A DNA stretch of 64,000 nt. Source: Escherichia coli (GTDB lineage Bacteria > Pseudomonadota > Gammaproteobacteria > Enterobacterales > Enterobacteriaceae). This document shows, one piece after another, positions 27,501 to 30,500 of the stretch. The stretch is taken from assembly GCF_003790525.1 (NCBI RefSeq), contig NZ_CP033635.1. One strand, 5' to 3'. The position numbers are program-made. Positions within the stretch are counted from its first letter, which is position 1. Each line of letters starts with the position of its first letter.

Positions 27501-30500
27501 AAGCGGTGAAGGTCTGTGAACGGGTCACGGTAAGCTGGTCAGGGAACAACTCTACTACAAGAACGCGCGCAGGGACCAGCCATGAAAGGAAGGGTGCCAG
27601 CGTTTCTTCATCAAGGATCACGTCGAGCAGAAAGGGATCGCTGACCTTTGCGGCTTCCGGGACCAGAGGCAGAACGTCATACTCCGCAGTACTGGATTGC
27701 GTTTCATGATACCAGTGGCTTTTGCCAGTGATGTGGCGTTGTTCCATAGGCGCTCCTTGGTCGTAAAGGAAATCGTTATCCTGACGCAAGGCGAGAAGGG
27801 GAGAAAGACGGATCGGCGATAACAAATATCAGAAAGGTATAACAGAGATAACGGGCGGCAGAACGCCGCCCAATATTTACCAACAGAACGATTATTTCAG
27901 TTCGAGTTCGTTCATTGCAGCGATGCTGAAACCGCCGTCAACGTGGACCACTTCACCGGAGATACCGGCAGAGAGATCGGAGCACAGGAATGCCGCGGAG
28001 TTACCCACATCTTCAATAGTAACGGTACGGCGAATCGGGGTAACGGCTTCGCAATGAGCCAGCATTTTGCGGAAGTCTTTGATACCGGAAGCCGCCAGAG
28101 TACGGATCGGACCCGCAGAGATGGCGTTAACACGCACACCTTCCGGACCCATCGCGTTCGCCATATAGCGCACGTTCGCTTCCAGAGACGCTTTTGCCAG
28201 ACCCATAACGTTGTAGTTCGGGATAGCGCGCTCAGCGCCAAGGTAGGAAAGGGTCAGCAGGGCAGAACCCGGATTCAGCATGGAGCGGCAAGCTTTTGCC
28301 ATTGCAACGAAGCTGTAGGAGCTGATGTCGTGGGCAATTTTGAAGCCTTCACGGGTAACGGCGTTAACATAGTCACCATCCAGCTGATCGCCAGGTGCAA
28401 AACCAATAGAGTGTACGAAACCGTCAAATTTCGGCCAAACTTTCCCCAGTTCAGCGAACATGGTGTCGATGCTGGCATCTTCGGCAACATCGCACTGCAG
28501 AACGATGTCAGAACCCAATTGAGCGGCAAATTCTTCTACGCGGCCTTTCAGTTTGTCGTTCTGGTAGGTGAATGCCAGTTCAGCTCCTTCGCGGTGCATC
28601 GCCTGAGCGATACCGTAGGCGATGGACAGTTTGCTGGCAACACCGGTTACCAGAATGCGCTTACCGGAAAGAAAACCCATAGCTTTAATCCTTATTGTTG
28701 ATGCTTGTTGTGCCTGAAAATCAGGCGATTCGTCGTTTTAGTAAACAGTACGAACAGATAAACGGTTATTATAATCAACCTGGCTGTGGGTGGCTATAGT
28801 TGCGCTTTCTGTAGCGGAGAGAAGCTGCGGTACAGAGCATTTTGCGTTATCTACTCCTGACGCCTGCAAGGGGGAGGTTGGGGAAATATCTTATAGAATC
28901 TGACTTTGAAACTATTCGTATTAGCTCCGATAAGTTTGATGATGAAAACAGAACTGGCGACAACAAGTCGCTGTCTTTCTGATGAATTGACCCCAACTTA
29001 ATATTGTCAACTATCTTCACAGAATCTCCACAATCTCTTCATTATCAGAATATGCATCATGAATAAGATAAAAATACTTTCCATTACTTTGGAGAAACGT
29101 ATAATTAGCAAAAATGAGAATGATCATTCTCACCAAGTGATAGGCCAGGAGACAGAAATGACCAGCAAGCTGGAGATACGCCACAAACAGCGTCAGGATG
29201 AAATCATTAACGCCGCCCGTCGGTGTTTTCGTCGCTGCGGATTTCATGCCGCCAGTATGTCGCAAATTGCCAGCGAAGCTCAGCTTAGCGTGGGTCAGAT
29301 ATATCGTTACTTCGCCAACAAAGACGCCATTATTGAAGAGATGGTTCGCCGTATCATCGACTTTCGTATTGCCCAAATGGACATTGACGCGCGTACCGAT
29401 CACTTTCCGGAAGTTCTTGCCTTGCGTAAATCCTTAAATGAGGACGACGACGCGCTGATGCTGGAAGTGGCTGCAGAAGCCACACGCAACCCGCGGGTGA
29501 TGGCAATGCTTGAAGAAGCTGACGCCAGAATGTTCGCTAACGGTTGTGCTCATATGAAAAGAATGCATCCCCATCTTAGCGACGAGCACATTCGTTGCTG
29601 CGTTGAAGTGTTTGCTACCATGATGGAAGGTACGGTTTATCGTCGTTTAACACCGCAAAAAAGCGATCCACAACATCTGCAGGAAATATATCAGGATATT
29701 GTTAGTATGTTGATAAATAAATAAGAACAGAATTAACCAATAGCGGGGGATATTAATCCCCCTTATTTCATTGCGAAATTCATTTCGCGATGCGGGTTCG
29801 TTATAACTGAATATCCCTGACATATCCTCATTAATTTCAATGAGGAGGGTATTTCTCACCCTGGAGAAAATAATGAAGTATATAGCAACATCTGTAGTGG
29901 CAATGCTGCTCTTATCGGGTTGCGATAATACGCAAAGTAACAATTCATCCCCGTCAGAAACAGAAGTCGGCGTTGTTACACTCAAATCTCAACCGGTTTC
30001 GGTAGTCAGTGAATTAACCGGACGCACCAGTGCTGCGCTCAGTGCCGAAGTACGTCCGCAGGTTGGGGGAATTATCCAGAAACGCTTATTTAAGGAAGGT
30101 GATCTGGTCAAGGCTGGACAGCCGCTCTACCAGATTGATGCGGCCAGTTATCAGGCTGCATGGAATGAAGCCCGGGCAGCATTACAACAAGCACAGGCAC
30201 TGGTAAAAGCCGATTGCCAGAAAGCGCAGCGTTATGCTCGACTGGTGAAAGAGAACGGTGTTTCACAACAGGATGCTGATGATGCTCAGTCTACCTGTGC
30301 ACAAGATAAAGCCAGTGTAGAGGCGAAAAAAGCCGCACTGGAAACTGCGCGCATTAATCTTGACTGGACCACGGTAACCGCACCGATTTCAGGGCGCATT
30401 GGCATTTCGTCGGTAACCCCTGGCGCACTGGTGACCGCGTCGCAAGATACAGCGTTAACGACGATTCGTGGTCTGGATACAATGTATGTCGACCTCACTC

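What the first reader, a model, noticed from the sequence alone, without database searches (positions are those of the whole stretch)
29100..29870. Palindromic operator candidates flanking the TetR gene, with a shared half-site
A perfect 18-bp palindrome (tgagaatgatcattctca, 29115-29132) sits 26 bp upstream of the TetR start. A 7-6-7 inverted repeat (cctcatt-aatttc-aatgagg, 29826-29845) and a gcgaaat-tc-atttcgc repeat (~29773-29788) lie between the TetR terminator and the pump operon. The octamer ttctcacc recurs next to both promoters (29127-29134 and 29855-29862). This suggests autoregulation plus repression of the pump by the local TetR protein, inducible by an unknown ligand.
Basis: seen in the sequence. 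Interest (0 to 1): 0.4.

Follow-up and report, generated by a model that had tools for sequence, protein, structure and literature searches.

The report
Known EefR operator plus conserved leader hairpins
The palindrome in front of the TetR gene is the already-published binding site of the EefR repressor of the E. coli eefRABCD efflux operon, while the repeats in front of the pump genes are conserved RNA hairpins, not extra repressor sites.

Summary
The window is E. coli. The region is the eefRABCD efflux island between fabI and sapF, present in 2,037 of 5,426 complete genomes. All the repeats exist, with small coordinate corrections.

The 18-bp palindrome (29115-29132) lies 9 bp downstream of a TTTCCA-16-TATAAT promoter. 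It is the EefR operator shown by EMSA, deletion and point mutants in Shen et al. 2025 (PMC12482432). I find it conserved about 40 bp upstream of eefR in every Enterobacteriaceae genus sampled, while the flanks diverge.

The "second operator" idea fails. That paper's non-competing control probe maps to 29727-29872 and contains every intergenic repeat. The repeats vary in sequence across genera but keep pairing through compensatory changes. They form three hairpins: H1 (terminator plus U-run), H2 and H3. No Rfam family matches. The leader stays with eefA in K. pneumoniae, which lacks eefR.

The shared octamer belongs to a lineage-specific operator look-alike (29841-29858). Its left half equals the mirror image of a published mutation that abolishes binding.

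Pump repression is best explained by co-transcription from PeefR. The core finding is already known. The structured leader is a modest new observation.

The parts
29078..29105 (+). PeefR promoter: -35 TTTCCA (29078-29083), 16-bp spacer, -10 TATAAT (29100-29105)
   Evidence: Consensus scan gives 10 of 12 matches. The -35 (CTTTYC) and -10 (CGTATAAT) are two of only three conserved blocks in the upstream alignment of 35 orthologous loci. A 316-bp upstream fragment drives gfp and is repressed by EefR (PMC12482432).
29115..29132 (.). EefR operator: perfect 18-bp palindrome TGAGAA-TGATCA-TTCTCA, 9 bp downstream of the -10 (about +4 to +21 if transcription starts about 7 nt after the -10)
   Evidence: P about 0.001. 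Conserved as ATGAGAAYGATCRTTCTCA at -37 to -47 from the eefR start in all Enterobacteriaceae genera sampled. EMSA, deletion and point mutants are published for the allele with a CGATCA centre.
29147..29151 (+). Shine-Dalgarno sequence of eefR (AGGAG), 6 nt before the ATG
   Evidence: Read from the sequence. Inference.
29158..29724 (+). eefR: TetR-family repressor, 188 aa
   Evidence: PF00440 TetR_N, E 2.1e-15. No named NCBIfam equivalog. PGAP gives the same coordinates in UTI89. Named EefR in PMC12482432 and PMC12817139.
29745..29772 (+). H1: intrinsic-terminator-like hairpin GGGGGAT-ATTA-ATCCCCC (29745-29762) followed by the U-rich tract TTATTTCATT
   Evidence: Terminator scan. Present in the MFE and centroid fold. 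Hairpin plus T-run recurs in orthologues with 22 different 5' arm sequences. 6 of 7 pairs show changes on both sides.
29769..29792 (+). H2: hairpin CATTGCGAAA-TTCA-TTTCGCGATG.
   Evidence: RNAalifold recovers it with 6 of 9 pairs compensatory. 95% of cells are paired. It is more stable as + strand RNA in 31 of 32 orthologues, with 42 G.U cells against 7 A.C cells.
29825..29846 (+). H3: hairpin TCCTCATT-AATTTC-AATGAGGA.
   Evidence: It recurs at the same position with 25 different arm sequences, for example CCCTGTTAA/TTAACAGGG and TCCTCGC/GCGAGGA. 6 of 9 pairs show changes on both sides.
29841..29858 (.). Site 2: operator look-alike TGAGGA-GGGTAT-TTCTCA.
   Evidence: The left half TGAGGA is the mirror image of the binding-dead M1 mutant. 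It lies inside the non-competing probe. It is absent from E. albertii, E. whittamii, one E. coli lineage and all other genera. About 1,200 E. coli genomes carry this allele and 17 carry TGAGAA.
29863..29866 (+). Shine-Dalgarno sequence of eefA (GGAG) in the conserved motif TTCACCCTGGAGAAA
   Evidence: The block GTTCACCCTG(G/A)(A/G)AAAA is conserved across genera.
29873..36677 (+). eefA (29873-30994), eefB (30994-34101), eefC (34105-35505), eefD (35514-36677): RND adaptor, RND permease, outer-membrane factor, and Bcr/CflA-type MFS pump
   Evidence: NCBIfam subfamily models TIGR01730, TIGR00915, TIGR01845 and TIGR00710 score above their cut-offs. UTI89 annotation agrees. Deleting eefR raises their mRNAs 27- to 83-fold.

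Best explanation
This is the regulatory region of the eefRABCD efflux operon.

Shown, from published experiments plus conservation found here: EefR, a TetR-family dimer, binds one operator, the 18-bp palindrome at 29115-29132. The operator sits immediately downstream of the -10 of the only recognisable promoter, PeefR. EefR thereby represses its own gene and, by co-transcription, eefA, eefB, eefC and eefD.

Inferred: bound EefR blocks RNA polymerase at open-complex formation or promoter escape.

Shown here by comparative analysis: the inverted repeats between eefR and eefA are not repressor sites. They are three stem-loops of the intercistronic mRNA.
- H1 is a G+C-rich hairpin with a U-tract, i.e. 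an intrinsic terminator.
- H2 and H3 form a structured leader that ends in a conserved Shine-Dalgarno context.

Inferred: H1 attenuates read-through, so that basal, autoregulated transcription makes EefR but little pump. H2 and H3 protect the eefABCD message or set up eefA translation.

The shared octamer is part of a lineage-specific, degenerate copy of the operator. It carries a binding-dead half-site and is most likely not bound.
For: Identity of the locus:
- TetR_N domain and RND/MFS families.
- fabI-eefRABCD-sapF layout.
- Carried by 2,037 of 5,426 E. coli genomes.
- Literature.

Operator:
- Published EMSA with a 129-bp probe. Loss of the shift on deleting the palindrome or changing one base. 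A GFP reporter is repressed by wild-type EefR but not by V45E or R50S. RT-PCR runs across all junctions. Deleting eefR raises eefA-D 27- to 83-fold. All from PMC12482432.
- My footprint: the operator, -10 and -35 are the only conserved blocks in 35 loci whose EefR is 62-71% identical.
- The recognition-helix residues, including V45 and R50, are invariant.

No second operator:
- The competitor primers map to 29727-29872, and that fragment did not compete.
- The left half of site 2 equals the mirror image of mutant M1.
- Site 2 is not conserved.

Hairpins:
- The + strand folds with z = -4.1 into H1, H2 and H3.
- The same three hairpins appear when 32 orthologues are folded independently.
- On the structure-aware alignment, 81% of cells are paired versus 46-58% when partners are slid. 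There are 115 double-change cells versus 15-54. 0 of 500 shuffles reach the observed values.
- H2 is specific to the + strand.
- The covariance model hits only eefR|eefA junctions, on the + strand.
- It also hits upstream of eefA in K. pneumoniae, which lacks eefR.

The paper notes that eefA upstream sequence is needed for phenotypes from multi-gene constructs.
Against: - The published competition used only 1x and 2x competitor. Weak EefR binding in the spacer is therefore not excluded.
- It is not known which site-2 allele strain ATCC 35218 carries.
- No transcription start site or 3'-end data were available. Termination at H1, and the absence of an internal eefA promoter, are inferences from sequence scans. 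The paper itself speculates about 'native promoter elements' upstream of eefA.
- H1 and H3 give no strand preference. Their assignment to the sense RNA rests on the U-tract, on the direction of the operon and on H2.
- The sequences are related, so the shuffle statistics overstate significance.
- The functions proposed for H2 and H3 are untested.
Confidence: 0.8

Rival explanations
1. EefR also binds the spacer repeats, or the shared half-site, at a separate pump promoter. The pump would then be repressed independently of PeefR.
For: Site 2 matches TGAGAA-N6-TTCTCA with one mismatch, against 0.10 such matches expected in 64 kb. The spacer is enriched in inverted repeats. eefA rises more than eefB, eefC or eefD when eefR is deleted (83-fold versus 27- to 43-fold).
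Against: - The fragment 29727-29872 did not compete for EefR.
- A single change equivalent to the left half of site 2 abolishes binding.
- The repeats vary in sequence across genera while the EefR recognition helix is invariant.
- No + strand promoter was found in the spacer.
- Co-transcription is shown.
- The authors' own genome scan with the motif found no other site.
Confidence: 0.05
2. Site 2 is a weak or emerging auxiliary operator in some E. coli lineages. This applies especially to the 17 genomes of the UTI89/NU14/UM146 type, where both half-sites are perfect. It would act as a roadblock to read-through into eefA.
For: UTI89 has TGAGAA-GGGTAT-TTCTCA with no half-site mismatch. Compared with E. 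whittamii and E. albertii, two substitutions in the common E. coli allele and a third in UTI89 all move towards the operator consensus. The third weakens H3 from 8 to 6 pairs.
Against: The centre of the true operator is YGATCR in nearly all genera, which suggests it matters, whereas site 2 has GGGTAT. The perfect allele is rare, 17 of about 2,000 genomes. The element is absent outside part of E. coli. There are no binding data.
Confidence: 0.07
3. The spacer contains eefA's own promoter. H2 and H3 would be the 5' untranslated region of a separate eefABCD transcript, and H1 would simply end the eefR message.
For: The leader stays with eefA in K. pneumoniae without eefR. Published remarks mention essential eefA upstream sequence and possible native promoter elements. 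H1 looks like a competent terminator.
Against: The scan finds no sigma-70-like promoter on the + strand of the spacer, and no conserved -10/-35-like block lies between H1 and H3. RT-PCR spans the eefR-eefA junction, and all four pump genes respond to loss of EefR although the spacer is not bound. In K. pneumoniae L082 the PeefR promoter and operator are retained upstream of the leader.
Confidence: 0.15
4. The spacer hairpins are chance repeats, or sites for another DNA-binding protein.
For: H1 and H3 are symmetric Watson-Crick stems with no strand preference.
Against: Enrichment over chance. Hairpins persist at homologous positions with 17-25 different arm sequences. Covariation exceeds the slid and shuffled controls. 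A protein site would be conserved in sequence, as the EefR operator is.
Confidence: 0.03

Closest known systems
EefR / eefRABCD of E. coli ATCC 35218 (Shen et al., Virulence 2025, PMC12482432). Distribution described by Pugh et al., Microb Genom 2026 (PMC12817139).
   Same: It is the same locus, between fabI and sapF, with the same 188-aa regulator at >=98% DNA identity. The operator has the same position and half-sites. The published primers match the window exactly.
   Different: The window's operator centre is TGATCA, giving a perfect palindrome, found in about 700 genomes. The published allele has CGATCA and is found in about 1,150 genomes. The papers do not describe the terminator or hairpin leader, the look-alike site 2, or conservation of the operator across genera.
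Classical TetR-family repressor/operator pairs that control efflux genes: TetR-tetO, QacR-IR1, AcrR-acrAB, TtgR, SmeT (general knowledge)
   Same: An N-terminal HTH domain. A palindromic operator overlapping the promoter. Negative autoregulation. Repression of an adjacent efflux system.
   Different: The regulator is the first gene of the same transcription unit, not divergently transcribed. There is a single operator. The authors state the motif TGAGAA-N6-TTCTCA resembles no characterised TetR site. The ligand is unknown. The closest solved relative is UidR, and only at E 1.4e-12.
eefABC of Klebsiella (Enterobacter) aerogenes and K. pneumoniae (Masi et al. 2005; Coudeyras et al. 2008; cited in PMC12817139)
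   Same: An orthologous pump: EefA is 78-86% identical to the Raoultella and E. coli proteins. The same three-hairpin leader lies upstream of eefA.
   Different: There is no eefR. Silencing by H-NS is reported. In K. pneumoniae L082 the promoter and a perfect operator remain, but eefR is deleted to a stub. In L083 only the -35 and a half-operator remain.
Intra-operon intrinsic terminators (attenuators) and structured mRNA leaders (general knowledge)
   Same: A G+C-rich hairpin with a U-tract between two co-transcribed genes, followed by stem-loops before the ribosome-binding site.
   Different: There is no evidence here for an alternative antiterminator fold, a leader peptide or a ligand. No Rfam family matches.

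Membership tests
TetR-family repressor with cognate operator (EefR system) | N-terminal TetR-type helix-turn-helix domain | tested here: met
   PF00440, E 2.1e-15, residues 16-62. PDB relatives are all TetR-family.
TetR-family repressor with cognate operator (EefR system) | Palindromic operator at the regulated promoter | tested here: met
   Perfect 18-bp palindrome 9 bp downstream of the -10. Conserved across genera.
TetR-family repressor with cognate operator (EefR system) | Specific binding of the protein to the operator | not testable with these tools
   Published EMSA, deletion and point mutants for the allele differing by one central base (PMC12482432). Positions 7 and 12 vary Y/R among orthologues, so the window allele is expected to bind.
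TetR-family repressor with cognate operator (EefR system) | Release from DNA by a small-molecule ligand | not testable with these tools
   No inducer is reported; resistance arose by HTH mutations. The C-terminal domain gives only weak Pfam matches to TetR_C_6 and TetR_C_31.
Second EefR operator in the eefR-eefA spacer | Sequence conserved with the operator in orthologous loci | tested here: not met
   No match with <=2 mismatches in the spacer of any locus except UTI89. Alignment shown.
Second EefR operator in the eefR-eefA spacer | Binding by EefR | tested here: inconclusive
   The published competitor covering 29727-29872 did not compete at 1-2x. The left half equals the binding-dead M1 mirror image. 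There is no direct binding assay at high protein concentration.
Intrinsic (Rho-independent) terminator (H1) | G+C-rich stem-loop followed by a U-tract on the transcribed strand | tested here: met
   7-bp stem with 5 G-C pairs, 4-nt loop, then TTATTTCATT. Orthologues have TTTTTGTC or TTTTTTAC tails.
Intrinsic (Rho-independent) terminator (H1) | 3' ends or reduced read-through in vivo | not testable with these tools
   No Term-seq or Northern data. RT-PCR shows at least some read-through.
Structured cis-regulatory RNA leader | Secondary structure conserved with compensatory changes | tested here: met
   H2 is strongest: 95% of cells paired and + strand-specific.
Structured cis-regulatory RNA leader | Membership of a described RNA family | tested here: not met
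   Rfam 15, best E-value 2.3, far below gathering scores.
Structured cis-regulatory RNA leader | Regulatory switch (alternative fold, ligand, leader peptide) | tested here: inconclusive
   No conserved mini-ORF: the ATG in the 3' arm of H2 is missing in Kluyvera. A fourth helix next to the Shine-Dalgarno sequence has no covariation. No alternative pairing was identified.

The most novel reading that the evidence does not exclude
The conserved H1-H2-H3 element is an undescribed cis-regulatory RNA. It would be a conditional attenuator or leader that gates read-through and translation of the EefABC pump in response to a signal other than EefR's ligand. This would explain three observations: it is kept with eefA even where eefR is lost, the pump is 'cryptic' in laboratory conditions, and eefA upstream sequence is needed for function.
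Probability: 0.2. Interest if true: 0.55.

Novelty: already known. Interest (0 to 1): 0.3.

Why it matters
eefRABCD is the seventh RND efflux system of E. coli and is confined to the phylogroups most associated with infection. Mutations in EefR give multidrug resistance when AcrB is absent.

This re-analysis adds four things:
- Evidence from many genera that the operator and promoter are the conserved control elements.
- A sequence-level reason why the operator look-alike in front of the pump is not bound.
- The observation that the spacer is a conserved, covarying RNA leader beginning with a terminator. This may set the regulator-to-pump ratio, and may explain conflicting results from expression constructs that include or omit it.
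- Evidence that Klebsiella lost eefR by deletion while keeping the leader and, in one strain, an orphan operator.

Tried and rejected
- Rfam search of 28700-30000 at E<=10 gave only noise.
- A fourth helix (AGGG...CCCU) next to the eefA Shine-Dalgarno sequence showed no covariation and an ambiguous register, so I rejected it.
- A leader peptide starting at the ATG in the 3' arm of H2 (MRVRYN* in the window) was rejected. The ATG is absent in Kluyvera, the length and sequence are not conserved, and there is no Shine-Dalgarno sequence.
- An internal sigma-70 promoter in the spacer: the scan found none on the + strand.
- An alternative eefA start at 29840 (in-frame ATG, used by some annotations giving 384 aa) was rejected. 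It has no Shine-Dalgarno sequence, and PGAP uses 29873.
- A strand-specificity argument from G.U pairs holds for H2 only. H1 and H3 are uninformative.
- RNAalifold on plain MAFFT or CM alignments recovers only H2, because H1 and H3 fall out of register. I relied on independent folds instead.
- The protein search with E. coli EefA was swamped by E. coli variants and was useless for Klebsiella. I repeated it with Raoultella EefA.
- Masi et al. 2005, which may give the eefA transcription start in K. aerogenes, is not held in the library.
- eefR-eefD modules in other genera have no comparable spacer structure.
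Full report
WHAT THE REGION IS. The window is Escherichia coli (pyrF...rnb-yciW-fabI on one side, sapF on the other). The finding lies in the accessory island eefRABCD. The genes are eefR (29158-29724, TetR family, PF00440 E 2.1e-15), eefA (29873-30994), eefB (30994-34101), eefC (34105-35505) and eefD (35514-36677). These encode an RND adaptor, an RND permease, an outer-membrane factor and a Bcr/CflA-type MFS pump. RefSeq annotation of UTI89 gives the same gene starts. The segment is present in 2,037 of 5,426 complete E. coli genomes at >=98% identity. 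The other genomes match only the first 114 bases next to fabI. This agrees with Pugh et al. (PMC12817139), who place the operon in phylogroups B2, D, E, F and G.

CHECK OF THE OBSERVATION. All four sequence features exist, with three minor corrections.
- The '7-6-7' repeat is 8-6-8 (29825-29846).
- The 'gcgaaat' repeat extends to imperfect 11-nt arms (29769-29792).

The 18-bp palindrome is unlikely by chance (P about 0.001 in its 354-bp region). The spacer is enriched in inverted repeats (P about 0.005). As TGAGAA-N6-TTCTCA with at most one mismatch, this copy is the only other match in 64 kb, against 0.10 expected. I call it site 2.

THE PALINDROME IS THE PUBLISHED EefR OPERATOR. Shen et al. 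(Virulence 2025, PMC12482432) report the following.
- Purified EefR shifts a 129-bp probe from the fabI-eefR region.
- Deleting the palindrome abolishes the shift, and so does a single base change.
- A PeefR-gfp fusion is repressed by wild-type EefR but not by the V45E or R50S mutants.
- RT-PCR spans every junction of eefR-A-B-C-D.
- Inactivating eefR raises eefA-D mRNA 27- to 83-fold.

Their allele is TGAGAACGATCATTCTCA. The window has T at position 7, which makes the palindrome perfect. Among complete genomes, about 690-705 carry the window allele and about 1,150 carry the published one.

A sigma-70-like promoter (TTTCCA-16-TATAAT, 29078-29105, 10 of 12 matches) ends 9 bp before the operator. 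Bound EefR should therefore cover roughly +4 to +21. That position is an inference, because I had no start-site data.

NEW SUPPORT FROM OTHER GENERA. I fetched 80 loci encoding relatives of EefR. The genera sampled were Escherichia, Raoultella, Dryocola, Lelliottia, Pseudocitrobacter, Enterobacter, Leclercia, Phytobacter, Cedecea, Kluyvera, Kosakonia, Citrobacter and Klebsiella, with EefR 62-71% identical outside Escherichia. In all of them the sequence ATGAGAAYGATCRTTCTCA lies 37-47 bp before the eefR start. In the alignment of 35 upstream regions, only three blocks are conserved: the -35 (CTTTYC), the -10 (CGTATAAT) and the operator. In Enterobacter the -10 runs directly into the operator. 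The recognition-helix segment LSVGQIYRYF is invariant across 24 proteins and includes V45 and R50. More distant relatives (48-63% identical; Erwinia, Pantoea, Serratia) carry TGAGAATGAACGTTC(G/A)CA further upstream.

THE SPACER REPEATS ARE NOT EefR SITES. Four lines of evidence point the same way.
- The paper's 'nonspecific' competitor was made with primers eefA-gel-F and eefA-gel-R. They match the window exactly at 29727-29746 and 29852-29872. The fragment therefore contains both inverted repeats, site 2 and the octamer, and it did not compete for EefR.
- The binding-dead mutant M1 changes TTCTCA to TCCTCA. Its reverse complement reads TGAGGA..., which is exactly the left half of site 2 in the window. 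Site 2 also has GGGTAT where the operator has the conserved YGATCR centre.
- Site 2 is not conserved. It is absent from one E. coli lineage (L002), from E. whittamii, from E. albertii and from every other genus. About 1,200 genomes carry the window allele. Only 17 (UTI89, NU14, UM146 and relatives) carry TGAGAA, where both half-sites are perfect. Site 2 is built from the 3' arm of hairpin H3 plus an E. coli variant of the conserved pre-Shine-Dalgarno motif GTTCACCC.
- The arms of the two inverted repeats differ between genera, so a protein with an invariant recognition helix cannot be reading them.

One caveat applies. The published competition used only 1x and 2x competitor, so weak binding is not excluded.

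WHAT THE SPACER REPEATS ARE. The 148-nt eefR-eefA spacer folds on the + strand into three hairpins (dG -46.5 kcal/mol, z = -4.1).
- H1 is GGGGGAT-ATTA-ATCCCCC followed by a U-rich tract. The scan calls it a terminator.
- H2 is CATTGCGAAA-TTCA-TTTCGCGATG.
- H3 is TCCTCATT-AATTTC-AATGAGGA.

Thirty-two orthologous spacers, each folded on its own, give the same layout with different stems. There are 22, 17 and 25 distinct 5' arms for H1, H2 and H3, with median stems of 7, 10 and 8 bp. The hairpins beat shuffles (fraction <=0.05) in 18, 29 and 23 of 32 sequences. RNAalifold recovers H2 with 6 of 9 pairs compensatory.

A covariance model built from these sequences hits only the eefR|eefA junction, on the + strand, in 36 loci at E <= 1e-8. 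On its alignment, 81% of cells are paired against 46-58% when the partner is slid. There are 115 double-change cells against 15-54. The covariation score is 0.376 against <=0.154. No shuffle out of 500 reaches the observed values.

H2 is clearly an RNA of the sense strand. It is more stable on the + strand in 31 of 32 sequences, with 42 G.U cells against 7 A.C cells. H1 and H3 are symmetric Watson-Crick stems and give no strand signal. The direction of H1 follows from its U-tract. No Rfam family matches.

THE LEADER BELONGS TO eefA. Where the eefR homologue is followed by eefD instead of eefA, the model finds nothing and the two genes are closely joined. This is the case in Kluyvera georgiana, Kosakonia, Erwinia, Pantoea, Mixta, Serratia and Lonsdalea.

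In K. pneumoniae, eefA has no adjacent eefR, yet the leader is there: L082 2866-3001, 55 bits, E 4.8e-13, with all three stems intact. Upstream of it, L082 still has the PeefR -35 and -10 and a perfect operator TGAGAATGATCATTCTCA, but eefR is reduced to a stub of about 60 nt. L083 retains only the -35 and a half-operator. So Klebsiella lost eefR by deletion, and the hairpin leader stayed with the pump.

MECHANISM.
- Shown: one operator at PeefR, autoregulation, and co-transcription of the pump genes with eefR.
- Inferred: H1 terminates part of the transcripts. The autoregulated basal level would then yield repressor but little pump, while derepression yields read-through.
- Inferred: H2 and H3, together with the conserved A-rich Shine-Dalgarno context, stabilise the downstream message or set eefA translation.

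Shen et al. remark that eefA upstream sequence is essential for phenotypes from eefAB/ABC/ABCD constructs. This fits a functional leader, although they interpret it as possible promoter elements. I found no promoter-like site on the + strand of the spacer and no conserved -10/-35-like block. Only start-site mapping can settle this. I give the separate-promoter rival 0.15.

COMPARISON WITH KNOWN SYSTEMS AND NOVELTY. The operator, autoregulation and pump repression are the published EefR system, so the finding as stated is already known. It works like other TetR-family efflux regulators. It differs in that the regulator is the first gene of the same operon and there is a single operator. The ligand is unknown.

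As far as the held literature shows, the following are not in the two E. coli papers:
- the cross-genus footprint of the operator;
- the explanation of the look-alike site;
- the covarying three-hairpin leader;
- the orphan operator in K. pneumoniae;
- the eefR-eefD module that looks ancestral.

These are modest additions.

VERDICT. Observation confirmed. Interpretation partly supported: right about the operator and about who represses the pump, wrong about how. Interest 0.3.

Noticed in passing
L011, L012, L025, L027, L031-L081 (subset); L066, L067: In Kluyvera georgiana, Kosakonia, Erwinia, Pantoea, Mixta, Serratia and Lonsdalea the eefR homologue is followed directly by an eefD-like MFS gene (45-68% identical), with no eefABC. 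In Brenneria and one S. marcescens, eefAB lie divergently upstream. eefR-eefD looks like the older module, with eefABC plus its leader inserted between the two genes.
   Followed up: partly
L082 about 2743-3001; L083 about 2831-3001: K. pneumoniae L082 keeps the PeefR -35 and -10 and a perfect EefR operator, but eefR is deleted to a stub of about 60 nt that runs into the H1-H3 leader and eefA. This leaves an orphan operator with no repressor. L083 keeps only the -35 and the half-site TGAGAAT.
   Followed up: partly
window 29121-29126 and orthologues: The operator centre contains GATC, a Dam methylation site, in nearly all Enterobacteriaceae orthologues (YGATCR). Exceptions are GACC, GTTC and AATC in three loci. 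It is unknown whether methylation affects EefR binding.
   Followed up: no
window 29033-29045: A block CTC(T/C)TCATTAT(T/C) lies about 33-50 bp upstream of the -35 and is moderately conserved across genera. It could be a site for another regulator or an UP-like element. It lies inside the published P1 probe.
   Followed up: no
L003 3568-3694: Escherichia sp. MOD1-EC7003 has an insertion of about 124 bp between the eefR stop and H1 (spacer 272 nt instead of 148 nt). From memory, its sequence resembles an ERIC/IRU repeat (it matches the ERIC1R and ERIC2 primer sequences). I did not test this.
   Followed up: no
window 29840-29872: An in-frame ATG lies 33 nt upstream of the eefA start, inside the 3' arm of H3. 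Many deposited annotations use it, giving 384-aa proteins. It has no Shine-Dalgarno sequence. PGAP uses 29873.
   Followed up: partly
window 28690-28803 and 28955-28973: Genomes without the island match the query only up to about 28803, which marks the island boundary next to the fabI promoter region. A terminator-like hairpin on the + strand at 28955-28973 lies between that boundary and PeefR.
   Followed up: no
window 20631-20656: The only other perfect 18-bp palindrome in the window lies here, within a longer inverted repeat. I did not examine it.
   Followed up: no
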